This document shows, one piece after another, positions 5,739-56,700 of a DNA stretch of 64,000 bases. Origin of the DNA: Moniliella sp. 'wahieum' (lineage: Eukaryota); contig RSEE01000002.1 in NCBI GenBank assembly GCA_003971905.1, positions 310,001 to 374,000 of the forward strand, written 5' to 3'. The notes under the pieces are model-generated. The model had not been told where the DNA came from. It saw nothing but the letters and a program-made list of their open reading frames with translations, and made no database searches. The first letter of the stretch is position 1. Every line of letters begins with the position of its first letter. Both the position numbers and the translations under genes were made by a program.

Positions 5739-6475
5739 ATGAAGACCGCCTTCCTCGCATCGATGCTCGCCATCGCTCCCTACACCTTGGTATCCGCTGC
5801 TAGCGCGCGCTCTGCGCAACAGACCAAGACTTGGGGTCCTGCCGACCTGCTTCTACTCGACTCGACGGGTACGAAGAACCACTCTGTTTCTTTCAATGGC
5901 TACCGTGACTCGCTCGGCTACCAAGTTTTGACGGAGCAGGGGGCCAATGGCGGACCAACCCGCTTCGAAGAGTTTTACTTCCATGCGGACTACTACCACG
6001 ACGATGTTCGTGGCTCACTCCTGACTGGATTGGGTCACCTCGAAAGTGCGGAAACTCCCGGCCGTTGCATTACCGCGCGCACCGTCGATACGCAGGGAAG
6101 CACCACCCACTTTGATGCTGCTCCTTGCGCCACCTCTAGTTCCGACTCGAACTATGAAGCCCAGCAATTCCATATCAATGGGCACAAGATCGCAACCCCT
6201 TCCGGCAGCGCCAATAACGCTTACGGACTCAACGCCATTTCCTTCGAAGGCACGGCTCAGTACACCTACTCCTGGACCATTGATGAGGCATCAGGTACGT
6301 GTTGTGCTCTATTCTTCCTACGACATTTATATACGCCTGTTGTGTTGTATCCTCTGCTGACACCGTCAATCTTCTCGATGCCATGATGTAAATAGGCCAT
6401 AAGACCGTGCAGGCCGGCAAGAACGTTGACGGCGGCAATTCTACCCTGTACTTTGACACGGTGATTTATGCGTGA
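5739..6475 (+). CDS. Small secreted protein (about 210 aa), possibly ricin-B/beta-trefoil-like; one intron 6295-6395
   Basis: CAAAC-ATG start; signal peptide MKTAFLASMLAIAPYTLVSA; PGRCITA...FDAAPCA...QQFH; intron GTACGT..GCTGAC..AATAG splices in frame to GHKTVQAGKNVDGGNSTLYFDTVIYA-TGA. Confidence 0.8.
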
Positions 6476-6539
6476 GAGAAAAGCCCATCCCTTTGGCCTG
6501 GACCAGCCTGGATCTCTTCCCTCCGCGCAGCCCTCCGTC

Positions 6540-7010
6540 TCACTTAGTACTGACCACAGTACTACTGAATACTGAGTACCACTTGTTACATGTCACATGT
6601 CACATAGTAGGCAAGTGACTAGTGGCTGTTACATTGTTACATGTTACAGTTGAATAATAGCACTTGTTGACAATTACATGTCGACTGTTAGCCTGAGGTC
6701 TGAGGGCCTGACATGTTGACAAGTGACAGTATGACAGGTGGAATGCGTGTGACAGGTGACAGGTGACATGACTAGTGACTAGTGACTAGTGAAGCTAGTG
6801 ACCTAGTGACCTGTGACACTAGTGACATAGAACAAGTGACATGCATGACATGCATAACATCCCTCGCGCTACAAAATGACTATAGCTAGCAGCTATAGTC
6901 GAGTGGTGTATATTGGTTTACACACATAATATTGCTTTTTGTACTACAAGGTACTGAGGAATGAATTTTGAGTATTGAGTCTGTGGCCTGACTGAGTACT
7001 GAGTTCCTGA
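6540..7010. repeat. Low-complexity tract of TGA/TCA/TTA-spaced palindromes (CATG, CTAG, GTAC)
   Basis: TTA-CATG-TCA-CATG-TCA (6586-6602); TGA-(CTAG-TGA)x3 (6769-6792); TGA-GTAC-TGA (6993-7002). Confidence 0.8.
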
Positions 7011-36700: not shown

Positions 36701-37811
36701 GTCGTCGGTGTAGACGAGCAAGATGGGCATGGGCGGGAACTTGTCTTTGCCCTCTTCTCCCTTCGCTTCGGCATTCGGATCATCGGTGCGGTCTTCAGCG
36801 CTAAGATCAAGTGCCAAACCAACGGGTTGGGTATCCACGCTCGAATCGGTAGTCGACACGGGGAGTAGGCCGTGCGGTTTCTTGAAGTTCTAGGTAAGCC
36901 ACCCACCCACGTCGGCACCTGGGTTCCCCTCTCCAGGTTGAGCACCGAGGGCGCCAATGTCCGTGCTCGCCACATTGCCAACGAAGAGGAGATGCTTGAT
37001 CCCTCCCCAGTGGCGAAGTGCCGCAGCTAGGCGGAAGGAGCGCTCTCCCCGGCAAAGTTCATGGCGGGGTCAACGGGGACTTTGACGTGCGTAAGGTTCT
37101 TAGTCGCTTGATCCCGAAGCAAAATGTAAACCTGCTCTTCCCCATCTTCGGCTTCGGGTAGTGGGGCATAGGTGACAACAAGACATGGTTCTCCAACCAG
37201 CGCACATCAACTGCCGCTCCACGCCGGAGGGGGAGGTAACTCTGCGGCCATCTTGCCTTGTGGGTATACTGCAGGACCTTTCCATCGGCCATACCAAGCG
37301 CAACTTGCTTTCCAACGTGAGACCAGCACGCAGCGCTGACCCTGGGCAAGAAGACTGGGGAGCCATCCAATGGAAGGAAGTAGGCATCCCCGGCGATTGA
37401 TGCGGCCGAGGCGTAAATACCGACAGCTAGTTCGGGGTGGGCACCAGGATTGGCCAGGAGTTCGATGAGGGTGGCACCCGGCAGGAGAGGAAATGATGGA
37501 GGAGGGGGAGCTCTCACCCACCGCAGTAGGGGGAAGAAGGGCCACACGGCCGTCGGCGAGACCGAGCAAGAGCTTGCCGTCCTGAGTCCAGTCGACAAAC
37601 ACGGCATTTGCTCCGAGCGGCGAGAGAGCCATGGGCATACGGAGTGGGGGCAGTGCGGTTGAGTGATGGGCGGCGACAGCAGCTCGCGCGCGGGCAGCGA
37701 GTGCACCGCCCATCCGTCGGCAGATGGCGACGGCGACGCGTGCTGGGCGGTGGAGAGGAGGAAGCGGGCGAGGACAAGGCGAGGTCGCCAGCAGGCGACC
37801 GGCTGAGCCAT
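30716..37811 (-). CDS. Nup159/Nup214-like FG nucleoporin (propeller - FG - coiled coil - FG/acidic tail); intron 35115-35168; many frameshifts
   Basis: Propeller-like VSAACWSHVGKQVALGMADGKVLQYT, DVRWLENHV, PVGLALDLS, PPMPILLVYTDDGILLQY; PSAFGQ/PSGFGQ repeats; coiled coil KLEAKKAEAARFVRAQKDPHYAAQVRVRQIGPEQAETQAQLRK..ELEDYL..PPLDAIFRTMRNL; acidic end EEHSSEGNDE*. Confidence 0.85.
32094..32352 (-). repeat. 12-bp coding minisatellite, about 20 units encoding PKEE
   Basis: Plus strand (ggctcctcctta)n grading into (ggttcctccttg)n; minus strand CCT/CCC AAG GAG GAG. Confidence 0.92.
36270..36465 (-). repeat. 18-bp FG repeats ([PS]S[AG]FG[QK]), about 10 units
   Basis: KPSAFGQPSGFGQPSGFGQPSAFGKPSGFGQPSAFGQSSAFGKPSAFGQTSAFGQSSAFGQ. 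Confidence 0.92.
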
Positions 37812-38076
37812 CGGGGACGCGGAGGGGAGGGCTGAGGCGCAGGTTGACGCCTGCAGAGCTCGCTCACTGGAGTGCGTCCAACTGGCCTTCGCCGGCCTCC
37901 ATCGTTGCGGGTGGTGGTGGTGGAAAAACGACGGACAGACAAGCGAGCATCAGGCGGAACGGCCGAGCAGATGCTTACGTACGCGCCCGAAACTCCCGCT
38001 TCCCAGCTGCGCAGGGCCGTGCGCCGAAACTTTCACACCCACTGCGTCTCTTGGCCCGCTGCCTCCCTCCACCAGC

Positions 38077-39357
38077 ATGAGCCCGCGCCCCCTCGCCGCC
38101 TTTCTCAAGCAGCAGAAGCAGGCCTTCCTCGGCCTCCCGGCCTCCCCCGCAAGCTCACCCTCGTCAGCGGCAACGAGTCCGGTGACCTGACTCGCTCGTG
38201 TGCGCTCTGAGCGTGGGCTACGCTCTTCACGCCTACCCTATCCTGCAGACGCGCGCCCGCGACCTACCGCTTCGGCCCGAAAACATCCTTGCCCTCCGTG
38301 CGGGCGGGGTGGACGTGCGGGACGTAATTAACCTGGACGACGTTGAAGCGACACTTCCCAAGCTCTCAAGCGCGGCAGTGGAGATCGTATTGGTGGACCA
38401 CAACCGTCTGACGAGCAGCCTGAGCCAATTCGATCCCAAGGTGATTGCCCTGCTGGACCAGTGCGTGCACCTCTCTTCGCGCTACCGAACTTGATCTAAC
38501 TTCATGTACTCAAATGTAGCCATGTGGACGAGGGATTATATCTTTCTGCATCCCCAAGGACCATTCTTCCCCCTGAGGAGTGTGGGTCATGCTCCTCCCT
38601 CGTCACCCGGGCCTTCCAGCGCGGATGGCTTGCACCACTGGTGGATGGGAAGCCACAAGAGCTAAACTGCGAGGTGGCGCGCTTGCTTCTCTCGGCCAAT
38701 CTGATTGACACACATAATCTCGATCCGACTATCGGCAAGGCGCACGCTGTGGACCATGAGGCGGCCTCGCTCCTGTCTTCCCTCGCTCAAGTTCCCCTTG
38801 GTGTGTCCTCGTCGGCAATTTCGGCCCTCAGCTTGAAACAAGACCCAACAAACAGTGAACGCAGCGCAGCTGTACAACGCCCTATCTGAGGCCAAAAATG
38901 ATGTTTCTGGTTTGGACACTCTCCAGCTGCTCACCCGAGACTACAAGCAGTACACCTGGGACGGCCCAGATGGGAGCAAATGGGAGGTGGGGCTGGGAAC
39001 AGTGCCAGAACCGCTCGAAAATTGGTTAAGCCGCGAGGGCCTAGCAAGTTTATTTCGGGGTGCAAAGAGTTTTCCCAAGAGCACCATCTCGATCTCTTAG
39101 GCGTCCTCACTTCTTTTGAGAAGGAGGGTACGTTCCAGAGGCAAGTCGTGGTCTACTCTCCGGGGGAGAAGGGCACGTTTGACCAATTTGTCGCGACGGC
39201 TGAGCAAGATTCGAGGGAGTCTCTCGACCTGGTCCCGCTCGAATGTAAGGACCTGGCGGGAAATTTCTTCGTTTGGCAACAACGCCAGACTCGCTCGACT
39301 CGCAAGCAGGTTGCCCCCGCGTTTTCCAAGGTGGTATCCAAGGTCCATCCGGCCTAG
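38077..39357 (+). CDS. PPX1: Exopolyphosphatase (DHH/DHHA2, Ppx1/prune family); intron about 38461-38519
   Basis: LVSGNESGDL(DS); LPLRPEN; VLVDHN; LLDH|HVDEG; CGSCSSLV; NLIDT; QLLTRDYKQY; WQQRQTRSTRKQVAP. Confidence 0.93.
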
Positions 39358-39575
39358 TAGTTTTTTTGCCTTTTAATTGTTGCACAAGTGCCTGCCACAA
39401 GCTACTGCTGTTTCGTTCCAGTTAGATGGCTCATCGTTAGTTGACTGGTTGTGTGTGGGCTCTACCAGTGCCCTTGTCGAGCCAGAGTGTAAAGGCGCCT
39501 CAGCTATCATATGACGTCGATCGTCCCCATATTCGCTTGGATTGCTTCCGTCGCATGCGTCACGCGCATCAGAGG

Positions 39576-41556
39576 ATGGATGCGGTACGCGTAACCGGCA
39601 CGATATATCGCGATAGACCATCCAGTCGGGCTGAAACATTGCAATTTGATTGCAGATGCGCTTAGCTTCGCGTCGCGCTCTGAGCAACGCTTGACCCACC
39701 TCCCACCGTTCCTCCCCCCAGCTGCTCGGAATGACCGAAGGAAAACAGTTCTTCAACGGCAGCCAGGCCCTGCTGGACCATATCCAGCAAGCCTTTCGTG
39801 AGCCTGGGATTCTTCTTTCCCAGGCGGGGACGCTGCGCGTGAGGCTCATTTCTCCTCCCCGCGTGTGATCCGGAACTGTTTGGCCTGGCCCATGCCGCCG
39901 GCGCGCCCGCTGCGCCAATCAAAGTGTGGGCGGAAGAGCTTCTCGTGACGGGCATCTGGACACCGGAGGCAGACCCAAGCGCGGACAAGATCATTTACGC
40001 CTTAAGTCTAGACCTCTTCACCCTGCCGGCCTACCGGTCTGGCGTGGTGTATGTGTCGAAGCTGGATACGACCGGATATGCCCCCCCCTCGTTGGCGCCA
40101 GACCTAAGAGAGGCACGAGTCAAGTTTGGGGGAGGAAGCGCACGACAATTGCAAAGTTACTCACCGAGAGCGTGCTTTCCTACTTTGTCCAGCTGGGACA
40201 TTGGCGACTCCCTTCTACGGCGGCAGACGAAGAGGAGAGATACGCGGTGGACCATGTCTCACTCCATGTACTTGCCCGCGCACAACACGCGTACCTCTTC
40301 CCCTGGTCCAACAAGGGAGAAGGAAAACATATTCTCACAGACAAGCAACTGATTCGGTGGTGGCGCTCGGTCCTCACTTGCGTGCTCTCTTCTGCCAATG
40401 AAGACCAACCTTCGTCTCAGAGCACTTCTTCCGCCAAGGCTCCCTGGACCCAGCTTTCTATCTCATCCCCGGATTTTCCAGTTAGAATCGACCGAGGTAC
40501 TCCCTTTGCCGTCCACGAGAGTGTGGAAGTACGGCGAGCCGTACACGCACGTCTGGCCAAAGGAAGGGGGGAACTTCCTCCCGCTTTACCACCCGGGCGT
40601 CCCTTCGACCTCCTCCCCCCCAACCGGAAGGGTGTGCGTCCATCTCAAGTTGGGACCAAGTATCTAGGGACAGGAGAAGAAGCGACGGAGCTAAGCATTG
40701 CCGCCCTCGTTCCGTCGTTTGACGATGATCCCAAAGGTCGTTTCCTTGCCGAGCTGGTGGAAGAGGCTTACGATCAAGGGCGGGGCATCAAGGTTGGGCA
40801 CAAACGAAAGACGTCCTTGGATTCTGGACCTCAAGCTAAAAAGGTCAAGCCGGAACAGAGCGAGTCGGGGGTAGGGGTGCCTGAACCTCCCCGAGACGGA
40901 CTCAGATCTGCTCCGGATCAAGAACAAGAGCCTGACAAAACCCCCAGCGCGACTGGCCTTGCGCCTACTGCAGTCCTGACACCACCCAAAAAGACTTTTG
41001 GAAAGAGCGGGCGCAGTTGGACAAGGTGTCCCCGGCCGAATTCTGGGAACGGATGGGGTTTCGGCAAGAGTGCAACTGGGCACGGCGGTGGGCGTGTTTG
41101 TGGTCCTAGTCCAGCGCACTGGTGGGACGTCGGCACCCCCTGTTGCTTCTATTTCGCAGGCTAGCGAGACAGAGCCCGCCCCACCCCTGCCACGGAAAGC
41201 TGGCGCACGGTTCTGGGAGCATTGCCGGGCAAAACACTGCATGAGCTGGTCATCCGCCTCCTGTTGCTCGATAAGAACGATTGGTCTACCGCGGCCTCGG
41301 CGACGGAACTGACACACAAGTGGATGCAGACGCTGACGAATATGGAGCGGCGGAAAGGCGAGGTACCTCGGTCGGGGTCTGATGGTGCAGCGCCCGAAAG
41401 TCCTCAGACCTATGTTTTGCTCCGCATTGCTCCACCCCCGGCGGAGGGGTGGAGCAAGCTAAAGTACGTGCGCAGCAGATCGAAGCAGAGCGCCAAGCAT
41501 ACGTGCCGCCCAAGCCAAGGGCACTGACGGTCAAGCGCAAGAAGCGTACTACCTAA
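39576..41556 (+). CDS. RTT109: Histone H3K56 acetyltransferase Rtt109; probable short first exon and intron about 39585-39655
   Basis: VYVSKLDTTGY; LHVLARAQHAYLFPWS..KHILTDKQLIRWWRSVL; VPSFDDDPKGRFL; EFWERMGFRQEC; basic end ALTVKRKKRTT*. Confidence 0.9.
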
Positions 41557-41759
41557 ACTGGAGAAGGGGAATAGAAATGTATAACTGCCAGAACAGGCGT
41601 AATACCAAGACTGATAAGGCCTTCCTACGTTGGCACGTTGAGCGCGCCAGAGTGAGTATCCAGCTGGCCCACGATCAAGTCCAACGCAAAGAAGTGCAAA
41701 ATGATAGTCAAAGAGGCCTAAGGCATCTGCTGAAACCGTCAGTGAAGACACAGGGGTGT

Positions 41760-44041
41760 TAGTTACCTTGCCGCACGTCGAACTTCAACTGTTGATCCAT
41801 AACTTAATCGTGCCGAACTTTCTTCGATGCTACGCAGATGTCAGCCACATGAGTGCGGAATGGTGCAAGCAGTTGAGGGGAAACGTACTTATCTCCACCT
41901 CAAATTCTTCCTCCTCACGGGTATGTTTGAGCGTGGCAGTGTCGGTAGTTGAGCCCTTGTCGGTGCTAGATCCATCTTCATAAGCACGTTGGGTAGAAGG
42001 GGAAGAGGGGGAGCCAATGCTCGAGCCGTGATCCTTTTCATCTTTTTGTAAAGCAGCGTCATCCGTACCCTGTCGTCCGTGCGTCTGTGCCGAACCCTTT
42101 TCAAATTGGCCAGTGAGAACATGCTTCACGTCCCCAACATCCTTCCAGGTGTTCGCCTCCTGCACATTTCCCGAATCTGTAGGCGTACCCTTTTCCCTCC
42201 CGAAAAGATGTATCGGTTTGGGGTGAGTTGGTAACCTCGCTTTCTTTGGACGTATCCTCCTCCTCTGGCTCATCCGCTTCGTCTTCCCCGACAAGGAAAT
42301 TGTAGCGAGTGATGAACCTCGGGCCTTCGTCCACCGAAACCATCAGTGGGCCATCGACATGCTTCTGATGCACCATGACCATCTCTTTCAATAGCAGTTC
42401 AGAAGTGAACACATGATCCTGCAAGCACATGGTCAGTATCACGTATCCATGTAGCGATGCCGAGCATGCACCGAGGGGAGACGACGTACCTCATTCAACT
42501 GCAGGTCTAACAAGGGGAATGTCAACAAAAGTTCGATCTGCTCCTGGAGGTAGTCGGCCAACCATTCCCGTATCCGTTGGAAAAATACCAACATGGACTG
42601 GCCCAAGAGCACCTCATAATCCGCCACCAGCACTAGCGCTTGCACTGGCTGCTCGTCCACCCCCAAGACAGTGACCAGGGGTGGAGGTTCTTCCCCCACC
42701 TCTTTCTCCGACAGGATGGCAAACGTGCACGCCCCGAATGTCAACTGAATGCTTGGTTCCAGCCTGTCCTCCTTGTTTGCCAAATCCATCCCAGGGGCAG
42801 GCTGATCCTGCTCCACGGGAGGATCACCCACATTTGGGCTCTCCTCTGTATCCGCAAGCGAGTGATGGGCAGAAGCTTCCTCCCCCGAAGGGGCAAACGC
42901 GCCGGGGTTCTCCTCTGCCTCCGTAAGGGGGATGCCTGCTTTAGAGGTTGCAACAGGCGATTTGGCGTCCACTGGACCTTGCGACCCAACTGGCGAATCG
43001 GCGCCCTCTGTATCCCCACTCCCAATAAGTAACCCAACGCCCTCGGTATCCTTATCCTTAGGGACAGAATCAGAGGTGACTTCCTGGGCAGACGAGGGTG
43101 GAACGCGCTCAAAATCAGCCTCGTGCTCGGAAGGGGCCTCCGCATCTGAGCCAGTAGGAGCAGGACGAAGGCCGGGACTAGTGTCCTGCGCGGGGCTTGT
43201 GTTGGTACCGACGTCGGTCTCGTTCACTGGCTTGGCTTTCGGAGGCAGCTGATCCACTCGTGGCGATGCAGGTTCCAATTCCGTACATTGTTCTGGAACC
43301 AAACTAGCCCTTTCTACCGAACCAACTTCGGGGGCAGTAACTGGCACAGCCGCGGAAATATCTCCTGACTCCTTCGTCGGCCAAACCTCCTGGGACAGGA
43401 CGTCATCTTGGGCCGCATCTTGCGCCGGCCCCGGCCCCTGCGTGTTGCCTGACAGATCTGCTCCTGCCTCAGCGGTGTTCTCCCGTGGGGAGGCATGGTG
43501 CATGTAAGGTGGGTGCTGGCTTGACAGTGGTTCGGCAGGTGGTTGTGGGCCGGGCAACGCCACCGATGGTCCAGCAGTCTCTTGAGGGGCAACGAACGCG
43601 GCCGCTTCAGGAGACGTGGGGTGGTCTGCGGGTTTCATGCGGGGGAACGGCGAGCTCGAGTTGCGGGTGGAACGGGGACTGCATAGGAAGGACGGATGCT
43701 CCTGGGACACGGTCCGCTGCCTCCCCAGTTGGGTGCTGGCCTAAATCGATTAAGTGCGCCTCGGCGTGCATGGGGGAAAGGGGCGCAGGGGGTTCGGGAT
43801 CGGCGCGCGTCTCAAGCTCGGATTCGAGGACGACGTCGAAAGGGGAGCCCGGCGCGGTGGAGTGCGGTTCCTCTGCCATGGGTTCAAGGTCAAAGTCGAC
43901 AGGCATGGGCTCGCTGGGCGGGAGCATCTCGTAGTCCACGTCGGCGGGATCAGCGGGATCCGCCCCACTGGCGGGGGCATCGTCCATAACGGCGTCCCAA
44001 GCGTCGACATAGGGCGAGGGCATGTCCATGTCGGCATCCAT
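41760..44041 (-). CDS. Acidic, largely disordered protein with DUF2420/Rmr1-like domain; introns 42419-42489 and about 41830-41888; 3' end approximate
   Basis: LVFFQRIREWL..ELLLTFPLLDLQLNE|DHVFTSELLLKEMVMVH..PLMVSVDEGPRFITRYNFL flanked by long D/E/P/S-rich regions; start MDADMDMP. Confidence 0.7.
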
Positions 44042-44563
44042 CGCAGCGGTCAACTTGGGGGAGACGAGTAAGGGCGAGTTGCTGGTAGCACTTGGTTGGG
44101 CAGAACCAAAGCCTGGGTCGCCCCTCTGGTTTAAAGCTTAATCGGCAGCCGGATAATCGATAACCCTTAATCAGCTTAAGCAGACCCAGCAGGCCGCCGC
44201 AGCGCCCAGCACCAAACGCCCCAAGCAGCCCCAGGAGGCCCAGGTCCAGGGTTGTGAGGCGGAATGCGCCGACTGTGGCCCAGTGCCTCCTAGCAAAGGC
44301 GCTGTGCTGCGTGGCAGTTCTGGGCGAGCAATTAAGTTGTCGCCCAAAGCATTCTTAGCTTTCTTCCCTGACCTCAGGCTGAGGCCTCACCTTTGGCTTA
44401 TCGCCCAAGACTCTCTCCAGACCTCCCTTCCCCCCCGTTCGGCCGTGTAACGCTTCTGGCTGGACTCCCCAAAGATCCCCGTTTCCCCTAATTGACTGAT
44501 CGTCGATCTTGTGTCGATAGGCACCACAATACGAATAAGTCAAAGGTCCTCGACGATCCTAAC

Positions 44564-46404
44564 ATGTCGCATCAATTGACTAGAGCCCCCGCTCGGGCCG
44601 CTTCGGTTCCCCCACCTCCAACCACGGCGTCCGGTGAAGAGTGGGATGCGTGGTACCGATCCCACTGGACACAACGCCTCGTCCGTGAAGAAGAGCTCGC
44701 TGCGGCGGCGGCGGAAGACGCCCGTGCGGATCGTGCCACGCTCCGTCGTATACTGGAACAGCAGATGGCCCAGCAGGAGCAACTGAAGGAGGTGTTGTCA
44801 CATCTAGCGGCTATTGCGGATCGCCAATCTGCCGCCGAACGCGAGCTGGCTAAACACTCCACAAACACGGACCGCCGCACGGTTGCCGAGGCAGGCAAGG
44901 TGGCGGCCGAGTCGCTTCGGTTCTTCGACGCTACGTCGGCGTGGGAGCTGCCCGAGTGGCTCACGTCGGTGGAAACCAACGCGCGCTGGGCTCTTGAGAT
45001 GGTCTGGCCTGTGACGGGCGAGCACCCGGACTTCCATCGCATCTGTATCCAAGCAGCAATGGCCCGCACTTCGGGAGATGTGCGGGAGTCGATTGAGGAG
45101 AATCTGACGAAAAGATTGGCCAGCGGCGCGGGCAGGCCTATTGGCACGGTATCCACCTCAGGCCGGTCTAGCCTTGCTCAAGGAGACCATTCGCGAGGGT
45201 ACCATCCGGTATGGTGGTACGGACTTGTGCGGGCCATTCAGCTGGCCAAACGTGATATGGCGGTTCTGCGGAAATATACACGGGGTGAAGCGCACCTGGA
45301 GAGGGACCTGATCAAGAAGCTTGCGGATCGTTTCCCTAAACATGGTCCCACGGCTGGGATTTACTACGCAGCAACTTGCGACCGTACCCAGGAGCAGGCG
45401 CTAGAGCACCTCCTCGAGCGAGCGACGTACTACGCCAGCGTGGACGAGCCTCCAAAGTGGGTAGGCAAGCTGCCAGAACACACGGATGGTACTCTCGCAG
45501 CAACACGCAGTACTCTTCCTCTCGCCCGATCAGAGAAGACCCAGACTACTGATACGCCCGGATCAGCCGGCCTCTTGGCGGCGATTGCCGAGCCTACGGA
45601 GATCACGCACGCAGACCAACTCAGCGTCACCGAGCCCCCTCTTAAGGTCCGCAAGGACTTCCGCGGGCCGGCCAAATGGGACGAGGATCCCCTCAGCCTC
45701 CCCGCATGGATCTTCGAATTCGAAGAACTGTTGGAAGCTTACGACATTGACCCTGCCTCCAAGGCCAGTGGTTCGCTCGCGAAAGAGTTCATCGTCGGCC
45801 CCTACCTGGAGACCGCTAGACTCGCCACGCTGCCCCCCATGCGAACTGCTGGATTAACTTTAAGCTAGGGCTCCTCCGCTCCGTCGATCCTCGCAACGCG
45901 CTTGACGATCACCTGGCCAAGGTTCGGGGCGGCCACTACTACCAGAACCTTGTACCACGTGAGCTGCCGAATCGTGTTCGCGCGGACTACGCCCTCTTGG
46001 GTGCTGCCGGTGTCTATGACATACAGAAGAATGCCATTGCGAGCGTCAACATTCTCCTTGGCACTGCTCTGCAAGAGTAGCGGACGCTCATTGCCCCTGG
46101 GATACCTGGGTCGCCAAGCTGAACAGCGGCATTCGCGCAGCGGTCCGGATGAATCAAGCGTGGGTCAACCGCTCCAAAGCGTCCATGGCTGCCCGCCTGG
46201 CCCCGCCGGCGGGTACAGTACCATCTCCCGCCCTGTTGACGCCTGCAGCAACGGTTGCCAGCAGTTTGTCAAAACGCAGGCCAAGAAGAGAGACTGGTCG
46301 AACGCATTCGCCGCGAAGCTTTTGCAGCCTTACAGTCTCAGCAGTCGCACGCCACCGGCGGCCCTAACCCGAGCGTAACGAGTGATCCTCAGGATTTTAT
46401 TTGA
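44564..46404 (+). CDS. Retrotransposon Gag-like protein: coiled coil plus two capsid-like modules; no pol or LTR seen; frameshifted
   Basis: Coiled coil RLVREEELAAAAAEDARADRATLRRILEQQMAQQEQLKEVLSHLAAIADRQ; module 1 LRFFDATSAWELPEWLTSVE..CIQAAMARTSGDVRESI; module 2 KDFRGPAKWDEDPLSLPAWIFEFEELLEAYDID..(shift)CWINFKLGLLRSV; reconstructed end SDPQDFI-TGA. Confidence 0.55.
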
Positions 46405-46919
46405 AGCCGGTCAGTGCTGGCCAGAAAAGGTCAATCCGCCCTCAAATGAATCTCTTCCTCTCGTCCCATTGTTCCAGCATATAGTTCTTCTTCTAGTCCT
46501 TGCCTATTAACGCAGGCTAGTGTCGAGCAGCGCGCATGCGTTTCCATGGAAGACTACCCGGGGTTGATGCACAAAACATGAAAACCCCCTACCCGCAGTT
46601 GACAACGAGGGCATCTCAATGAGTATTAAGCGGGGATGTGAGGCTTTGGATGCGTAGGAGAGAGCAACGACAGAAAAAAGTATACAGGTAGGACCACCTG
46701 ACGGAGATGCAAAAAAAGGAGAGAAGATACTTTTTGGATAGATATAAAAGATCAAATCGATCAAAGGACCATGGAAACGCTGGGTCATGTCCTTTCCGAT
46801 TCGGAAACCAATTAATACAAGCAATCAAACTACCACCCACGACACAACACCTGTGCATTATGGGCACAGATCTCGACGTCAGCAGCAAAGCGGAAGCAAG
46901 CAAAGATTTTGAGCACGTC

Positions 46920-48786
46920 TCAGCGCATTTGTTTCATGCTTCCTGTGCCAGGCACTCCCCGCTCTACTGGGGCCGTATGCTGTGCCTGATCGTGCAGCCA
47001 AGTAGACACATCGGCCGAGGGGGGACGGTACCGGCGGCCGTAGCCGCTTCCCTCACCATCGGGGCGGGAACGGCGTCGGGCCAAGGCCACTGTTTCTCCC
47101 TGTGACTCCACTGCACCAATCGAGCTGGGTGCGGATCGGCGCGGGGTCTCCTCGGCATGCACAGTGGACGGTACGTAGGGGTCGTACTCATCAGGGACGC
47201 AGGATGCCATGCGCCGCTTGTGGGAAGGCGAACGGACCGCTTCTCCATACAAGGGATCGGTGGCCTCATAGGGATCAGTACCGAGGTCCGCCAGGTTGGA
47301 CAATGTGGGGCTTGGGGCTAGGGCCGAGTTCGTCGTCCGTGCCTGCGCCTGTGTAGGATTCTGTTCCAGCGATGCCGGCTTGGCGGGGAAGCAAGATGGG
47401 GGCGAGATGGTGCGGACCAAAGGCCCCAACTCGTCCGAGGTCCTGGTGGCTGCATCCGTCGCCGTCGGTTGCTGGGCTGCCGAGGATCGGGGGACGGATT
47501 GGGGAAAAGGGTCCGGCTCTTCCTCGTTGCGGACCTTGCTGTACTTCCCCAACCAGCCGTAGGCGTACGACGTACCGTCTTGGTCGGTCGGCCCAGGGGG
47601 AGGGAGAGCCCCAGCCTCCAACGGTACAGTGCGACGAACTGGGCTCCTTGGTCGCGGTCCAGCCGGCCCAACCCGCGCCCGGTTCGATCCGCGGGAGCCC
47701 ATGGATCTTCTGTGCGTCTTCTTGACTGAGGTGATGGTGGCGCCAGATCGGGTCCGGACCAGGTCCCCCCCCCGAACGGTGGAAGTGGACTTCATACGCA
47801 CCGGTGTGTCTTGCCTCCGAGAAGCAAACTCCTGCATGGATATCCTTTCTCGCGGGCGGGTGAATGCGCCAGGGCGAGGGCGGGGGCCCTGGGCACGGCC
47901 TTGCCTCGGGGGGCGCTGGGGGGATGCAGGACGGTGACGGTACATTCCACCCTTTCAGGGAAACAGTACGTACCAGTGGCACATCCTCCTCCCATTCACG
48001 GCGGTGCTCTGGTTTTAGGGGAACCGAGCGGGAAGAAGGAGTGCTCAAGGTATATGGTTGGCTGTCCAGTTTTGGCGGCGGAATCGGGGGTAGGTCTGCG
48101 TACCCTCCCATGTCGGGCTGTGGTGCATATGAAGGTATGGGGCCGGGATATGGGTCAGGAACGGATCATCCTGTGGTACGGGGGAAGGTAGGCTGGCTCA
48201 GCCAATTCAGAGGGGTGGGCTTGCCTAGTAGCAAAGGCAAAGGACGTCAAGCGCTTTGGCATCTTTCTTGACGGGAGAGGGGGCGGTTTCTTGGGTAACC
48301 ATTTCCAGCTCCTCCTCCTCGCTGGGTACAGGGCCACTCCAGCGCTCGGCGGCAATGAAGGGATCGATGGCAGCGCGGTTGCTGAAGGGGTCGTCAGCCC
48401 TTTGGCCCAAGGAGCCAAACACGGCAGCGGCCGAATAAGGATATGTTGGATCTTGATCAGTGAGCATGGGTCGTTGGGTGGATCCCTGACCCCGATGACC
48501 ACATAGAACGGTGTTCTTTTCAGCCTGGGACGGAGTTGTTGTATGGTGGGAGACCCCGGGCTGCGGCGGCAGAGGTAGATGAGGCCAGCCATGAGGGCGA
48601 CCCAGCCCATGGCGCCAAGCAAAGAAAAAGCGGGGTGGTGAAGAGGATGTGGCCATCGGAGACGATGCCCTCTGGGAAGTCTCCTGGGTTGGCTGACCCG
48701 AGGTCGGTGACCACTTCGGGGCCTTCAGGGACCTGGGAAGGAACGCCTGGGGGGTTGTGTGACGAAGGACACTGTTGGAGGGGCAT
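46920..48786 (-). CDS. Hypothetical single-pass membrane protein with long Pro/Ser/Arg-rich tail; boundaries approximate
   Basis: Hydrophobic segment ILFTTPLFLCL/GAMGWVALMAGLIYLC followed by RR; long open frames 47275-48111 and 46920-47945 with disordered composition. Confidence 0.5.
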
Positions 48787-49438
48787 GGGGAGAAGGGATG
48801 GAGGTGGTGGGAAGAGGAGGAGGGTTGCGTGCGGGAGGCGCTTGCCAAGTTGGATGCGGCAGCCGTGGAGGAGGGGTATCTTCTGGTATGTGCTGGTTGG
48901 ATGGGGCTGTATGGCTGCCACTTGGCGCCGGGGGTAGACCAGACTCAACGGAAGACCCTTGGGGGCTACGTGCTACGTGCTAAGTACTAAGTGGGCATAC
49001 AGGGAGGACAGCGGACGAGGCAAGGTGGGTGGGTAGATCCTGCGTGGCGGTGAGCAGGCCATCTTGACAGGCCTGACAGCTCCAGCCAGGGAAATGATCC
49101 GTCGAGTGCGCTGTCAACTTCTATCCCCATCAACCGCCGATCGCACTGGGGCAGTGTTCGGCTGGGCTGCCCCAGCGATGGATGCTCGGGGTCAACTGGA
49201 ACAGGACGGCTGCGCGGCAAGCAGCTCTTTCCTGTTGCGCCAATGGGGGGGGGGGATGGATCCCTGTCACACACGCTGCCCATGGGATCTGGGATGTGCG
49301 CTGGTGGCGACGGAAGCCGAGTGGCTAGTAAGTAGTAACTACGGACTAGCAACCAGCACGCAGCTGTCGCGGGGCTGGCACCTGTAACTTCCTCCCGGCA
49401 GGCCCCATGCGGCGGCGCTTGGAGGGGCGCCGCTGGCA

Positions 49439-49516
49439 TGCTGACATCAGCAGCGCAGAGTGGCTGACATCAGCACAGGCGATAAGCCAGCTGAGCCCCC
49501 CGCGCTGACCTCAGCG
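49439..49516. promoter_or_regulatory. Three extended CRE/MARE-like palindromes upstream of PAN1
   Basis: TGCTGACATCAGCA (49439-49452), GGCTGACATCAGCA (49462-49475), CGCTGACCTCAGCG (49503-49516). Confidence 0.45.
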
Positions 49517-49717
49517 GTGACTGCGCCTGACACGCAGGCGGCACACTCGTGGAGTGCTGCGCGCTTACCTCAGCCGGGCGGCGGAGCACAGCGGCGCAGT
49601 GTCCGCCTGCGCCGCCCTGCGCTGCCCGCTCCGCTTGGCGGGCGCCGCCGCCCCCCCCCAGCGCCCACGCTCTCCCGGCGCTTCGACCTGCTCTCCACCG
49701 CCTTCGCCCTGCCCGCC

Positions 49718-52700
49718 ATGTACCGTCCGGGCCAGATCCCCCCCCAGATGACTGGGTATGTGCCGCCCCAGGCGACCGGCATGCCCATGTACCCGCAGCA
49801 GCCCCCGTCCCCCAGCGCTATGGCCCCCAGCTCGGCGTCCCCATGGCCTCCCGCCCCATGCTTGCGCCCCAGGCCACCGGCATGGGCATGCCCGCCATGG
49901 GCATGATGATGCCCCAGCCCACCGGCATGATGCCCCAGCCCGGCATGATGCCCCAGCCCACCGGCATGGTGCCCCAGGGCCTCATGCCCCAGGCAACCGG
50001 CATGATGCCCAGGGCCTCATGCCCCAGCCCACCGCTATGATGCCTCAGCCCACCGGCCTCATGCCCATGGCCACCGGCATGATGGGCATGCAGCCCGCCA
50101 TTGTCGACCCGCGTCTGAGGCTGATGAGCAGCCAGTTCCTCCCGGGACCCTCATGGCCGGTGCCGGCCCCGGCGGCGTGGGCGGGCTCGGGGTCGGATGG
50201 AACCCGGCAGCCCAGCAGCCCGCTGCATTCCAAAGCCAGTTTGCCCAGTATGCTCCCCTGGCCCCGGTCACCAACCTGGCCCCCTCCGAGTGCCCCCCGG
50301 CAGGCTGGGCTGCAGTGGACGTTGACGCCGGAGGAACGTGCGTCGTACGATCGCATCTTCAAGGCCTGGGATCGCAACAAGACTGGCTACCTGGACGGCG
50401 GGGTCGCCCGAAGTGTTGGGGCAGAGTGGATTGCCCGACGAGGTCATGACGCATCTGGCACTGGCTTGGCTGACCAGGACAACCGCGGCAAGCTCAACCG
50501 CAGTGAATTCCACATTGCCATGGGTCTGATCTACCGTGCCCTCAATGGCGTTCCTCCCCCCGATACACTTCCTCAAGAGCTGCGTACCCAGTCCCAGCGA
50601 GACTTGGATGATTCGGTAGACTTTATGCGTGACTTGCTCAAACGCAACAACCAAAAGTCCAACCCACAGCGAGGCACCCCAACTGCCCCGACCCGTGCGC
50701 CTGTCACCTCTTTGGCTGACAAAACGATGAACACGGTAAAGGAAGCACCCGAGGAGGACCCGCTCGCCGACCTGAACGCTATGAAAGCCGCGCTGGAGCA
50801 GTCGCGCAAGGCACTGGCTGCGTCCGAGACCGCGCCGGAGGCGAAAGAGGATGCTCAGCTCAAGCAAGAGATGGATGCGCTGCGCCACGACATTCGCCGA
50901 GTTCAGCAGGACATTGAGTACTTTACTCGTCGCGGGGGCAACTCAGACCAAGCGAAGGAGGCGCGCCGTCGGGCCGAACGAGAGCTGTTGGCCTTGACAA
51001 CCGAGCGCTTGCCTGCCCTTGAGCCCGCATGGCCCAGCGCGACGCCCCAGGTGGAGTACCGGACTCGTCTCCTGAGGCCGGGTGGAAGGGCTCGTTTGAG
51101 CGGCAACCTGAACGATCTACTTCAGCCTCGACCATCTCCCCTTCCCGGACGCCTGCGCCTTCGGCCCCGGCGCCTCCTGCAGCTGCGCCCGCGCCGCCCC
51201 CCCAGCCCCAGCCCCCGCCCCAGCGGCGTCGACAACCACCTCTGCCCGCGGTGGATGGCAGGCGCAGGCGAATCAGCCCCCTCCCAACCTGGACGCGGCA
51301 GGCCGAGCTGCATGGTTAAAGGAGCAGGCGCAAAAGAGGGTGCAAGACCGGATGCGGGCACTTGGCCTTCTAGCCCCAGTGACGGAGACTGAACCTCCTG
51401 CCGCTGCCAGCGGAGCGGAAGAGGGCCTTGCGGCGCGTATGGAGCAGGATGCCCAGGAGGATGCCCGCCGCGCGCAGGAGGCGGACGCGCGCGCCGCCGC
51501 GCGTTCGGCTCGATGGGACGAAACTCAACGCTCGCGCGAAGCCGAAAAGAAAGCGCGATGGGAACGCCTGGCCCAGATGGAGAAGGAGGAGAAGGAAGCC
51601 GCGGCGAAAATGGCCTCGCCTAAGCCCCACAAGAGCAAGCCTGCACCCGCTGCGCCTGCGCCTACGCCTGTGGCTGCGCCCACACCTGTCGCGCCCACCG
51701 TGCCGTGCCGGCTCCTGCCCCACGGGCTCAATCGGCCCTCCCGCCCCCGCAACGCAAAATGCCCGGACGCAAGGCGGCCCCACCCCCGCCTCCTAAGCGC
51801 CATGCGGCTCCCACCCAAGCTAATGCGCCCATCAGCCCGCCTCCTCCTGTTGCTCCCCAGCCCCAGCTCCAGCTCCAGCTCCAGCCCCAGCCCCCCAGCC
51901 GCGGTTTCGGCCCCAGCTCCAGCCCCAGCCCAGCGCATGCCTCGCCGCCCCCGTCGGCCTCATCTCTCGCGCCCTCGGAGGCATCGGCTGTGCCCACTGC
52001 CATGACCCTCCCGCCTGCCACGCCAGGAGGAACCAACCCTTTCTTCCGGAACCAACCCGTTTCCCCTTCTGCCGCTGCCGTTCCCACCCCCGCTCCCGCT
52101 CCCGCTCCCCCCCTGCCCCTACTTTGGACAGTCCCACGGCGAAGAAGACCAACCCTTTCTTCCGTTCCAACCTCCCACCCCCACAGCGTGCTACTCCGCC
52201 CGTGGCATCGCCTGTACCGGCCCCGTCGCCTGCTCCGGCGCCTGCGGCGATCGTTCCGCCTGCTCCGCGTGTCCCAGTGGACGACGACGACGATATGGGG
52301 CGACCACTCGGAGGAGGACGAGGAGGATGGGGATGGCGCGGGCGCTGGGCACACGTGCCGGACGAGCTAACCTGGCTCAGGCCCTGTTTGGGGGATGGTG
52401 CCCCAGCGGGATGCTACTCCCCCAGCTGCACCTGCTGCGCCTCTGCGCCTGCTGCTCCGGCTGCTCCTGCGCCCCCTGCCCCGCCTGCCCCCCCGCACCG
52501 GCCGCACCGGTTCAAGCCTCCTAGTGGCCCTGTGGACCGCAACGCACTGCTCTCCCAGATCCAGGGCGGGGCACGACTGAAACATGCGACCACCAAGGAC
52601 CGCTCGGGACCGGCGAGCACAGGCAAGGTCTTAGGTTCCGCCTCGCCCCCGCCTCAGCCCGCGGTGGTTTTGCAACGGATGCCAGAGCCCGAGCCGGAGC

Positions 52701-53375
52701 CCGAGCTGGCGCCAGCCCCTACACCTGTGCCAGCGCCAGCGCCTGCACCTGCGGCTGCCCCTGCCCCTGCCGTGGTGGAACCCATTGCGTCACCCGCCAC
52801 AACAGGGGAGAACAACCCGTACCGTCAATCGGTCGCATGGCAGTCCACCTTGGCTGCCGACTCGTTCGCTGCGCCGGGTGCGTTCCCAGAGGAGCCGGAT
52901 GTGGTTCAGAGTGGCAGTGACGATGGGTTTGTTGTCGTTCCTCCCGAGACGGATGCTGCGACGGTCAAGGCGCTGCAGAGCACATTGCAAACCAAACACC
53001 GCGCGCTGTACAGCTACGCGGCCAGCGGGAGGAGGACCTGGCCTTGACGGAAGGTGACGTGGTCACGCTCACCGCGCCCCCCGAGGGGGAAGGGGACGAA
53101 GGGTGGTCCTATGGCGTCAGGGCCGACGGCGCGGGCGGCTGGTTCCCGGCGGCGTATGTGGAGAGATTGGGGCAACGCAGGTAGCCAAGGCGCTGTATGC
53201 GTACACCCCGGCCCCCGCTGACCCAGCCGAGGCCGATGCCGAAGCGGAGCTGGAGGAAGGCATGGTCCTCTTGGCGCTGCCGAGTCAAGAAGGGGCAGAG
53301 TGGATCGATGTGCTGGACCCGAGGATGCCGGTCCGGGTCCGCCGCGCGCCTGCTGCGTTCCTTCAGCTAGAATAG
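49718..53375 (+). CDS. PAN1: Pan1/intersectin-like endocytic scaffold: QxTG repeats, EH domain, coiled coil, Pro-rich region, WH2, two SH3
   Basis: PQ[PAM]TG repeats; WTLTPEERASYDRIFKAWD..LADQDNRGKLNRSEFHIAMGLIYRALNG; NPFF twice; WH2 DRNALLSQIQGGARLKHATTKDRS; HRALYSY..EGWSYG..GWFPAAYV; AKALYAY..EWI..PAAFLQ. Confidence 0.9.
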
Positions 53376-53777
53376 TCGGGTTCGACTCGGTTGCCAGGCA
53401 CCGCTATGTCTAGTCTGTCACCTCATTCTTTCTTTGCTCTTTTTCTTCTTGGCCCGCATGGTACCCGCATTGCGAACTTAAGCCGAACGATGAACGTTTT
53501 ATCATTTCCTCTTCATGACGTTCGGAGCGTCCTCCAATTGGAACATGGCAACAGGAATACATACTAGCAGACAGGAACAGAGACCATTTTGAGACAACGA
53601 CAGGACAGGTAGGTAGGTATGAGTACGGAATGTGGGAGCGCCGAACGAGGGATATGGCGCGGGCGTGAATTGTCGTGGGGCAAGCATGCACTGATAGTCT
53701 GTCGGGGAGATAGTGGAGACGGGGGGTTGTGTACAGAGTTATATGGAGGTGGTCGATGAGCAGGGTATGGGCCCTGC

Positions 53778-56700
53778 CTAGTTGCTCGAGACGGAGTGAC
53801 CAAACGAGTTGTCCGAAGAGGCGGAGCTTGGCACACTGGCTATCGTCTCCCCTCTGGGATCCACATCAATTCCAGACTCGGAGCTGGTGGAGGCGGAGGG
53901 GGTGAGTTGCTTGTAGGAGGATTTGGCCTTGACTCGCATGCGCTGTACTTCAGCCTTGGCGGCCACCAAGGCAGCTTGCTTGCGCACCTTGTTCCGCACC
54001 TTCAGGCGCTTGCTGATTTTCCTAGGACGATGCCGAAGGATGCCTTTAATGATAGTACTGCGCTGGCTCCACGCAGCACGGACGACGGCTACAATCATGT
54101 CAGTGGCCGGACCTCAACTCAGAGCAAAGGACGAACCTCTCTTAAACGCATTCATCACGTCCTCCAGTGTGCCCGTGGTCTGTCTCAGCTCCAGGGGGGG
54201 CGTCTCAATGACCGAGTCATAGAGATTAACCAGCCGGTGGTCCCCACGGTATGACAGGCAGATGAGCGCCTTGGGAATGCGGACATACACAAACGTTCGA
54301 TTGTGTGCTGCCCGCTGGCGCATGACCGATGCAATGCGCATCGTGGCCGGGTCCAGATCACCCATACGATTGAAGTCTTGCAGCGACTTGCCGTTTCTGC
54401 GTCCCAGCTCGGGGAACGACGAGCTGGGAGAGTCAGTGCGCTCACTGCTACCAGTGTGCTGCCGGACAGATTGGCGCCTAGGGCTTGACCCATCCGGCCC
54501 TGGACTCGAATCCGTCGTCCTTCGGATCCCTGAAAACTTGAAGAATCCCGGGTGAGTAGAGTCATGGTCCGCGCGGGACTGTAACTCCGTGTCACGTTGG
54601 CTCCCAACACCAAGGAAGAAAGGAACGTGTCCCCCGTTGGGACGCTTTTCATCCAGCCGATCCGTTTTTTTGTGCCGCGCCGAGGCAAAGATGTATTCAG
54701 CAATCTCCCTCCCGATCGGCATCTCCAATTGGATATTGACCGGGTGAATATCCACTTCAAACCGATCCACAATGCTGATCCCGCCAACGGGGGCTAGCAC
54801 TTGCCAAATGGCGTCGATGAACCGTTCGTTCTTGGCCATGTGATGATCATTGGCACCCTTGTACTTGCTAAATATCATGGGGAAGATCGCATCCGGTCGT
54901 ACATCCCGTGCCTCCACGTCACGGATGGAGAGAGCATTGGCGATAGAGCTGTCGGTCTTGCTAACCCAAGTGAAACTGGAGTTTTGGATGCGGAGTTCTA
55001 CCAGATGTTCCGCTTCTTGCTCCGTCCGACGGAAGGCGAGGCGGGACTTGGCCGCGCTGCGAAGCATGGTCCAAACAATCTCCTCGGCATTGGCCTCGAG
55101 ACGCAACGCACGCTTTTTGTCCGAGTCCTGTCCCGCTTGCTGGTCTTGAGCGGTTTTGATGGCACTCATGAAGAGGGATAAATCCTCAATCAGGTCTAGT
55201 AGATGAGACATGCACTCGCTCGCATGAAACCGGCCTTCCTGGCCCAATAAGCTGTAGGTGGCAGCGTAGTCCTCGCAAACGTGGGAGGCGGCCCAAATCT
55301 TTTCCTGTAGTGAGGATACAATGCGGGTTAAGTTGTGCGAATCAGTAAAATCAAACACCAACAGCAAGGTTTTGAGCCGCTCTTGGCGCTGCTTGTAAGC
55401 GGGATCACTGTACAAGATCAAAGTGGTTGCTTTGTAAAGCGCTTCAAGCTGGTCTGCATCGGCAACAACCTTAAGCGGAGGGGCGGTTACCCGGACCAAA
55501 TCCATCTGGTGCAGCAGGTGCTCTTGATCTTTGGGGACGCGGGCCGGTGTCATATGTGTCAGTCTATCCTGGTTGGCCAGACGAAGAGAATTGAAGTGGT
55601 CGTACTGCACCATGGGCGCAAAATGAGAATAAGCTGGTGAAAGCCTTTCCAAATGACCGGCTGATTCTCCTGATCGAATGGGTCAAGGAGTGCCTCCATT
55701 GGCAGCGCATGATGCGCATCAGCCTTAGCAGCCCACAGCTTGACGCTGTCTGCCATGAAAAAAGTGCGGTTGAGAACGCGCGAATTAAGCTCATTGCCTA
55801 CCGCCAAGGGATCGTGAACGGTAAAGGCGGTCAGGTGCAAACGTACAGCCGTAAGCACGACGGGTGAAGCGTTGCCCAAATCTTCGCTGCGGAGAATGAT
55901 TTGAGGACGCAAAATGGTGCACACGGTATTTCTGCGTACCTCAAATTCGGGAGTAATGCCACGGTACGGGTTGGCGACCAAAATCGACTCAGGCAAGGAG
56001 GTGCCCTTCACATCCGTCGTGGACGCTGTAAGAGAATCAGATAGACGAATTGTGTCTTCCAAAAGTGCACGAAGCATTTCTACGCAATTCCCTGAAGGGG
56101 TGCTGGGACCGAATTTTGCCCCATATGCAAGTCCTGGATGGACTTGAGGGCAGCAGCGCGAAGAAAGTAAGCTTGAGCTCGTCGCATACGGTTGGAAACG
56201 TAGTATCGAAGGAGGATGTTCCTTGTGCTCTCCGTCCAAAACAAAACTGGGCAATGCACCACATAGCGATGGAAAAGCGATTCCAATGCCCATGCAGCTC
56301 GTTCAACTTGTGTCGTTGAGTCGTATTCTCGTCTAGCACATACGCCGGGGCGGTGCACACCTCCTCTGAGTGGGCCTTGCCTTAGCGTGCACTTCGCCCT
56401 CCAGATTTTCTTGCCATTGCTTAAGTGCTTGCTGGCGTTGAAGTTTTGCCCCCCGTACCGTCAGTTTGTACGGGAACAAGCTCAGCAAAGTCATGAATGA
56501 TACGGATGGATCGGTCGCGTTGAGTTGTTTTCGGTTCCTTGCGCAGTTCAGAAATCCGCTGGTTTAGCAAATCGTGCTGAACATCGTCTGGGCCTAGGGT
56601 CAGGTATGATTAATGATTGTCAGGAACGTTGTACATGAGGCTGATTCAGAAAGAAAACGTACTTTGACATTGACCCATGAGACACCTGTGCGTCACCTCG

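What the first reader, a model, noticed from the sequence alone, without database searches (positions are those of the whole stretch)
44564..46404. Stand-alone Gag-like gene with an apparent tandem duplication of the capsid module: candidate domesticated fungal capsid (Arc/PEG10-like)
Seen: an intronless ORF of about 600 codons after repairing a few single-base indels like those in every neighbouring gene. It sits head-to-head with the Rmr1-like gene, about 520 bp apart. It encodes an N-terminal coiled coil and two segments that resemble each other and the start of the retrotransposon Gag capsid. Module 1 is 'RFFDATSAWELPEWLTSVE...AYWHG...ALLKETIREG...AKRDMAVL' and module 2 is 'DFRGPAKWDEDPLSLPAWIFEFEELL...CWINFKLGL...ALDDHLAKVRGG...VRADYALL'; parts of both were read across frames. 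I see no CCHC knuckle, protease, RT, integrase, PBS or LTR pair. Known: LTR-retrotransposon Gag normally has one capsid region, and lone coiled-coil plus capsid genes in animals (Arc, PNMA) are domesticated and form particles. Inference: this is either a co-opted double-capsid protein (particle-forming or a restriction factor against retroelements) or a gag-only non-autonomous element.
Basis: partly seen in the sequence, partly recalled or inferred. Interest (0 to 1): 0.75.

Follow-up and report, generated by a model that had tools for sequence, protein, structure and literature searches.

The report
Fused two-capsid retrotransposon gene in fungus
A fungal gene joins the coat-protein parts of two different, now broken jumping-gene families into one reading frame, and the host probably keeps it, as it keeps several similar lone coat genes, perhaps to jam related jumping genes.

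Summary
The gene is real (about 600 codons, six frame pieces, no stop; six frame offsets, two contradicted by an independent short-read contig). It is not a tandem duplication. Module 1 comes from gag lineage A, with its leader still upstream. Module 2 is 82-83% identical in DNA to an LTR-flanked gypsy-type relic on contig C10. The modules are only remote homologues (HH probability 35%). Models of module-2 relatives match Arc/PNMA2/Ty3/copia capsids (top 15 of 15 rows). No LTR pair or pol was found at the window locus. The genome holds a set of such pol-less gags: five pairs shared by both haplotypes show pN/pS 0.16-0.39 after insertion (52 synonymous/46 nonsynonymous), against 30/80 in dead copies (p=2e-4). 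The window gene has no second haplotype, so its retention is inferred: terminal-branch pN/pS 0.30, no stops. Best reading (0.6): a host-kept chimeric gag, most likely a DRT2-like capsid-poisoning factor. Main rival (0.3): a not-yet-decayed recombinant relic. Expression and particles are untested. The scan had already noted the C10 relative.

The parts
44371..44563 (+). Remnant of the leader (possibly the LTR 3' part) of retroelement lineage A, running up to the gag ATG; lies in the 523-bp gap shared with the divergent neighbour gene
   Evidence: About 80% identity to copies on C50 and C2:993k, alignment score 215 vs shuffle 26-28; weaker match to the leader of the A gag on C57
44564..44881 (+). 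N-terminus of lineage-A gag: Pro-rich start, a W-rich motif shared with C57/C67, then a charged, probably coiled-coil helix
   Evidence: Translation; alignment with C57/C67. The coiled coil is judged by eye, not predicted by a tool
44882..45472 (+). Capsid module 1 (lineage A), with two mutually compensating frame offsets near 45108 and 45226
   Evidence: 33-37% aa identity to C57/C67. The module-2-clade profile scores the 45108 piece 10.7 bits, 0 of 500 shuffles as high, but not the C-terminal piece (252 of 500). HH probability 35%, E 4e-4, 92 columns. Not folded
45473..45646 (+). Inter-module linker holding the in-frame A-to-B junction at about 45505-45525
   Evidence: DNA similarity to lineage B begins here, at about the position where C10's second copy begins
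45647..46175 (+). Capsid module 2 (lineage B), two-lobed CA; frame offsets near 45837 and 46077
   Evidence: 82-86% DNA and 72-73% aa identity to the C10 modules; capsid-fold matches of the C10 and C6 models
46176..46404 (+). Pro/Ala linker and basic tail without CCHC; offsets at 46270 and 46288; stop
   Evidence: Matches the C10 tail at 77% DNA, dN/dS 0.58, CI 0.32-1.16; short-read contig covers 46108-46364
46408..46460 (+). Last remnant of lineage-B sequence after gag; integrase remnant, polypurine tract and 3' LTR are missing
   Evidence: Score 48 vs shuffle 26.6 +/- 2.7; LTR-B against the window scores at shuffle level
42101..44041 (-). Divergent host neighbour (Rmr1-like by recall), frame-broken like other genes of this assembly; the lower coordinate is approximate
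   Evidence: DUF2420, E 0.014, below cut-off

Best explanation
A host-retained chimeric gag gene. SHOWN: the 5' half of a lineage-A gag (leader, coiled coil, capsid) is joined in frame, inside a linker, to the capsid and basic tail of a lineage-B gypsy-type gag, and the LTR pair and pol are gone. INFERRED: the join arose by template switching between co-packaged RNAs or by deletion between nested elements, and the frame offsets are long-read errors. INFERRED from sister genes: the host keeps the frame by purifying selection and transcribes it from the old leader region. HYPOTHESIS for function (about 0.35 overall, the larger share of this reading): the protein co-assembles with Gag of related elements and, because two capsids are tethered and cannot be cleaved apart, spoils the particle lattice, as p22/DRT2 do, possibly against two lineages at once. 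The remaining share is a particle-forming or RNA-binding host role.
For: No stop in 598 codons nor in 272 codons aligned to C10 at dS 0.35; dN/dS 0.40, CI 0.27-0.58. Window terminal branch among three B copies: 19.5 syn/18.5 nonsyn, pS 0.18, pN/pS 0.30. Dead copies of a sister lineage at similar distance (pS 0.17-0.24) give 0.72-0.87 with 3 stop-bearing codons per pair. Neutral drift of 0.08 substitutions per site would leave the frame stop-free in 1% of simulations, of 0.05 in 6%. No copy of the gene above 86% identity. All 5 of 5 open gag pairs tested at loci shared by both haplotypes are under post-insertion constraint: A 0.25, C 0.16, E 0.25, F 0.39, G 0.39. Pooled 52/46 vs 30/80 in three dead gag pairs, p=2e-4; the neighbouring integrase remnant gives 0.94 and a B remnant 0.89. 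A second two-capsid B gene on C10 is open over 545 codons although its LTRs are 84% identical. Host genes carry as many frame offsets: 11 in 2.1 kb between two haplotypes. Fold.
Against: The window locus has no second haplotype, so selection after insertion is not shown for this gene, and its branch includes time as a mobile element. Even dead non-allelic copies give pN/pS 0.50-0.58 when distant. Four of six frame offsets are unverified, and the first two compensate each other, so they could be real. The four listed substitutions in the short-read contig all change residues in the Pro/Ala tail (depth 3, weak). No intact element with a related Gag, the expected target, was found (best candidates only), whereas Drt2m is 91.5% identical to its target and barely cross-restricts (PMC13709905, passages). 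At 0.02 substitutions per site, a stop-free frame is expected in 32% of simulations. One of the three dead control pairs (C87/C86) may not be allelic.
Confidence: 0.6

Rival explanations
1. A functionless recombinant relic: pieces of two LTR elements fused by deletion or template switching fairly recently; the low dN/dS is inherited from the mobile phase and the frame has not yet decayed, or is already broken at some offsets.
For: Lineage-B LTRs were mobile until fairly recently (solo copies up to 98.6% identical at unlinked sites). B fragments also follow another gag on C92/C16, where they are dead (ratio 0.89), so such joins occur without selection. Six offsets, four unverified. No allele test possible.
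Against: No near-identical parent of either half. Both LTRs and pol are lost while the whole frame stays open. The junction falls in a linker, in frame, and leaves two whole capsids. Dead copies of similar age carry stops.
Confidence: 0.3
2. A mobile gag-only non-autonomous LTR element (TR-GAG-like) that is copied by helper elements.
For: Relatives lack protease and RT: C10 has LTR-gag-integrase remnant-LTR, and on C110/C174 an integrase remnant follows gag within about 0.4 kb (integrase recognised by recalled motifs, no Pfam hit).
Against: No LTR pair at this locus; the A-B chimera was seen once.
Confidence: 0.05
3. An assembly mis-join between an A-type and a B-type locus in an error-rich long-read assembly.
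For: No read across the junction was available; the one contig covers only 46108-46364.
Against: Both halves are unique at DNA level (nearest 80-86%), so no repeat could seed a mis-join; the junction is in frame and at a linker, and host genes flank it.
Confidence: 0.03

Closest known systems
DRT2 of Saccharomyces cerevisiae and Ty1 p22/p18 (PMC13709905; passages read)
   Same: gag frame kept under purifying selection while the rest of the element decayed; fixed host locus; capsid fold (Drt2 CA-CTD appears in both fold lists, Z 5.4 and 5.8).
   Different: DRT2 is a Ty1/copia fragment with one CA-CTD, over 90% identical to a live target, and proven by knock-out. This gene has two whole capsids from two lineages, at least one gypsy-type, with no live target found and no functional test.
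Co-opted fungal gag genes Crtg12-14 (Wang and Han 2021, PMC8321522; passages read; supplements not opened)
   Same: Lone gag-derived genes in fungi under purifying selection.
   Different: Those are ancient, single-copy, copia- or Bel-Pao-derived and syntenic across families. These are young, lineage-restricted (no outside homologue found), numerous in one genome, and here chimeric.
Arc/dArc, PNMA2, PEG10 (domesticated Ty3/gypsy capsids; features recalled, structures hit)
   Same: Coiled coil followed by a two-lobed capsid; best full-length fold matches are dArc1 (Z 7.8, rmsd 8.1, 152 aligned) and PNMA2 (Z 6.9, rmsd 3.9, 151 aligned).
   Different: One capsid per chain, animal, particles shown; none of that is tested here. 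Z values below 8 are middling.
TR-GAG non-autonomous LTR elements (search listing only; definition recalled)
   Same: gag without pol.
   Different: They keep both LTRs and move; this locus has no LTR pair and no near-identical copy.

Membership tests
LTR-retrotransposon Gag (module 2) | Two-lobed CA fold | tested here: met
   Tested on relatives. C10 module model (pLDDT 55): the only chains aligned over 140 or more residues are PNMA2, dArc1 and copia capsids. C6 model (pLDDT 81): rows 1-15 of 50 are all retroelement or retroviral capsids. Foldseek gave no E <= 0.001.
LTR-retrotransposon Gag (module 2) | Derived from an LTR element | tested here: met
   C10 relative lies between 81-84% identical direct repeats with TG..CA ends and a purine tract. 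That LTR has many solo copies; 4-bp target duplications are visible at 5 distinct sites among 18 loci.
LTR-retrotransposon Gag (module 1) | CA fold or homology to capsid | tested here: inconclusive
   Not folded. HH probability 35%, E 4e-4 against the module-2 clade; earlier, thinner profiles gave 0.3-5%. Of 8 A pieces, 3 beat at least 498 of 500 shuffles, 2 were marginal, 3 were not significant.
Autonomous Ty3/gypsy element | LTR pair and pol at the locus | tested here: not met
   tblastn with long frames of five young-element loci found nothing in window 36001-56000, but that search also missed the old integrase remnants of relatives.
Domesticated gag | Loss of LTRs and pol, single copy | tested here: met
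   leader remnant retained.
Domesticated gag | Purifying selection at the orthologous site after insertion | tested here: inconclusive
   Met for 5 of 5 sister pairs. No allele of this locus in the assembly. Branch ratio 0.30 cannot separate the mobile and fixed phases.
Domesticated gag | Intact frame | tested here: inconclusive
   No stops; 2 of 6 offsets contradicted by a short-read contig, 4 unverified.
Domesticated gag | Transcription | not testable with these tools
   No run on record as RNA was available.
DRT2/p22-type restriction factor | Cognate element with near-identical CA interface | tested here: inconclusive
   None found in best-candidate protein searches or in 16 stretches around integrase hits, out of 148 rve matches.
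DRT2/p22-type restriction factor | Lowers retrotransposition, co-fractionates with particles | not testable with these tools
   Bench test.
Arc/PEG10-type particle-forming protein | Self-assembly into RNA-containing particles | not testable with these tools
   Bench test.
TR-GAG | gag between two LTRs, several near-identical copies | tested here: not met

The most novel reading that the evidence does not exclude
This fungus keeps a battery of at least eight captured gag loci as an anti-retrotransposon library, and has twice produced double-capsid proteins (A+B here, B+B on C10). The window gene would be a natural bispecific, uncleavable capsid poison, or a scaffold for particles with two capsid types in one chain.
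Probability: 0.25. Interest if true: 0.8.

Novelty: new variant of a known kind. Interest (0 to 1): 0.57.

Why it matters
Domesticated gag genes are documented only sparsely in fungi (three events in PMC8321522, plus DRT2). A genome with many young, constrained gag captures next to dead siblings is a natural test of how often capsid-based defence against retrotransposons arises. A chain with two capsids of different lineages was not found in two literature searches. It would bear on how capsid specificity can be combined and on tethered-capsid inhibitors.

Tried and rejected
Outside homologues: none at the thresholds for the C10 module with tail, the window frame, the C92 gag or alignment A4; these blanks are weak evidence. 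Pfam: no gag, protease or integrase family in any piece. PDB by sequence: nothing. Foldseek: no E <= 0.001; Arc was rank 1 at E 0.24 for the C6 model. Sequencing runs: no RNA holder listed; one run with a share of 0.06; it covers 257 bp of 19 kb, and the uncovered flanks are no evidence. Synteny: C8/C23 hold about 70% paralogues of two downstream window genes but different neighbours, so they are not an empty site. A sigma-70 scan is meaningless for a fungus. Tandem duplication was rejected. Dropped from the pooled dead control: 8 of the 10 dead-dead pairs, which are not allelic (ratios 0.50-0.87). Dropped from the pooled open pairs: the gag C N-terminus (8 syn/12 nonsyn, 0.56) and 31 invariant codons of gag G. 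No complex prediction was run, since no binding is claimed.

Full report
Setting. The window is G000:C2:310001-374000 of a 69.5-Mb, 223-contig assembly. It is fungal by gene content: Rtt109-type HAT_KAT11 and Pan1-type EH/DUF1720 hits flank the finding. The assembly is indel-rich and holds many regions twice at 90-94% identity with host-gene dS 0.08-0.11. I treat these as two haplotypes. It also holds many LTR elements: 148 integrase-core matches.

The frame. From ATG 44564, six in-frame pieces total 598 codons with no stop. Against the unbroken C10 relative, the 3' half has four single-base gaps (45837, 46077, 46270, 46288) and no stop in 272 codons. A 262-bp short-read contig (depth 3) has one more base at each of the last two. 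Two further offsets near 45108 and 45226 are inferred from protein similarity to C57/C67; they cancel each other. A host gene compared between haplotypes shows 11 frame-breaking gaps in 2.1 kb, so six offsets in 1.84 kb is the error level of this assembly. Four remain unverified.

Not a duplication but a fusion. The two modules share no DNA repeat and give BLASTP E 0.06. Window 45525-46391 is 82-83% identical to contig C10. There a 545-aa frame lies between two direct repeats 81-84% alike, with TG..CA ends, a purine tract and a degenerate integrase end before the 3' repeat (integrase recognised by recalled motifs only). That search returned 43 matches, most to the repeat, and several are solo LTRs with 4-bp target duplications. 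Integrase last before the purine tract indicates gypsy order (established knowledge). Module 1 matches a different gag on C57/C67 at 33-37% aa, and the 200 bp before the ATG match that lineage's leader. The switch from A to B falls in a linker at about 45505-45525, near where C10's own second capsid copy begins. After the stop, B similarity ends at 46460; no LTR follows.

Fold. No outside homologue or Pfam family was found, so I built alignments from relatives inside the genome (C6, C7/C40, C92/C16, later C110/C174, C17/C62, C202). The C10 module model had pLDDT 55; the only chains aligned over most of it were PNMA2 (Z 6.1, rmsd 3.8, 147 residues), dArc1 (5.8, 4.3, 156) and two copia capsids, though an unrelated ATPase fragment ranked first. 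The C6 model had pLDDT 81; the first 15 rows were all retroelement or retroviral capsids, best Z 7.8. Z below 8 is middling and Foldseek found nothing at E <= 0.001, but with the LTR context the capsid call for module 2 is sound. Module 1 was not folded. It aligns in register with the clade at HH probability 35%, E 4e-4, and its middle piece beats 500 of 500 shuffles while its C-terminal piece does not. It is a probable, remote capsid.

Is it kept by the host? Low dN/dS between separate insertions proves little: distant dead copies give 0.50-0.58. The clean test is a pair at one locus in both haplotypes. Five pol-less open gags have such pairs, with shared flanks: A 17 syn/15 nonsyn (0.25), C 13/7 (0.16), E 9/7 (0.25), F 7/9 (0.39), G 6/8 (0.39). 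Shifted frames give 0.71-5.1. Three host genes give 0-0.12. The integrase remnant beside gag A gives 0.94 and a dead B piece beside gag C 0.89. Three dead gag pairs give 30/80; Fisher p = 2e-4 against 52/46. So this fungus does keep lone gags after insertion, less tightly than housekeeping genes.

The window gene itself has no partner haplotype. Indirect evidence: its branch among three B copies has pS 0.18 and pN/pS 0.30, whereas dead copies at pS 0.17-0.24 show 0.72-0.87 and stops. A neutral frame of this length stays stop-free in 32%, 6% and 1% of runs at 0.02, 0.05 and 0.08 substitutions per site. Its age is not measured: nothing nearer than 86% exists, yet B LTRs moved fairly recently (up to 98.6% between unlinked copies). 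The four listed differences in the short-read contig are all nonsynonymous, in the loosely constrained tail. I put retention at 0.6.

Mechanism. Shown: anatomy and origin. Inferred: fusion by template switching or nested deletion; B pieces also follow a C gag on C92/C16 (dead there) and a B capsid on C10, so such joins recur. Hypothesis: a chain of coiled coil, capsid A, capsid B and basic tail, with no protease of its own, enters assembling particles and spoils the lattice, as described for p22 and Drt2 (PMC13709905, passages). Against this, Drt2 works on a target over 90% identical and is subfamily-specific (same passages), and I found no intact element with a related Gag (not exhaustive). 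The factor may have outlived its targets, or have another role such as particle formation.

Known systems. Wang and Han (PMC8321522, passages) report three ancient single-copy fungal gag co-options, none gypsy. Searches for 'tandem capsid' with gag and retrotransposon returned one paper, on a totivirus-derived array (PMC13756089, passages); 'two capsid domains' with gag returned none; 'chimeric gag' occurred in none of the 15 listed papers. The library lacks most subscription papers. A fission-yeast genome preprint (passages) added nothing. No supplements were opened.

Verdict. A real chimeric two-capsid gag, wrongly read as a duplication, probably domesticated, one of a set of retained gags in this genome. 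New variant of a known kind; interest 0.57.

Noticed in passing
L017/L018 (C57/C67), L011/L111 (C92/C16), L108/L109 (C7/C40), L140/L138 (C110/C174), L139/L141 (C17/C62), L107 (C6), L142 (C202), L007 (C10): A genome-wide set of pol-less gag-like frames; five haplotype pairs under purifying selection after insertion, next to stop-ridden siblings on C87, C38, C86, C78, C74 and C18.
   Followed up: yes
L007:6426-8063 (C10): Second double-capsid gene (B+B, first copy lacking the last helices), open over 545 codons between LTRs 84% alike; the linker before copy 2 resembles another B variant, so it may be a recombinant, not an in-place duplication.
   Followed up: partly
L140:5900-6900 and L138:3200-3900: Gag F is followed within about 0.4 kb by a degenerate integrase core with no protease or RT between, like the gag-plus-integrase elements noted elsewhere in this genome.
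   Followed up: partly
window 46984-48754 and 53952-55840; L050, L051: Two window genes have about 70% identical paralogues that are adjacent on C8/C23, without Pan1 between them: trace of an old duplicated block.
   Followed up: partly
L009:5016-5194 (C50); L017:6186-6412 (C57): Haplotype-specific insertions: 178 bp on C50, starting like the LTR of a young intact element, right after the A leader; and a 226-bp high-copy repeat on C57 absent from C67.
   Followed up: no
L044:3829-4049 and 6334-6565 (C72): Two B LTRs in inverted orientation around an integrase remnant.
   Followed up: no
window 38000-47000: No second-haplotype copy of the Rtt109 to gag stretch was found, although many other regions are present twice: collapsed, homozygous or hemizygous.
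   Followed up: partly
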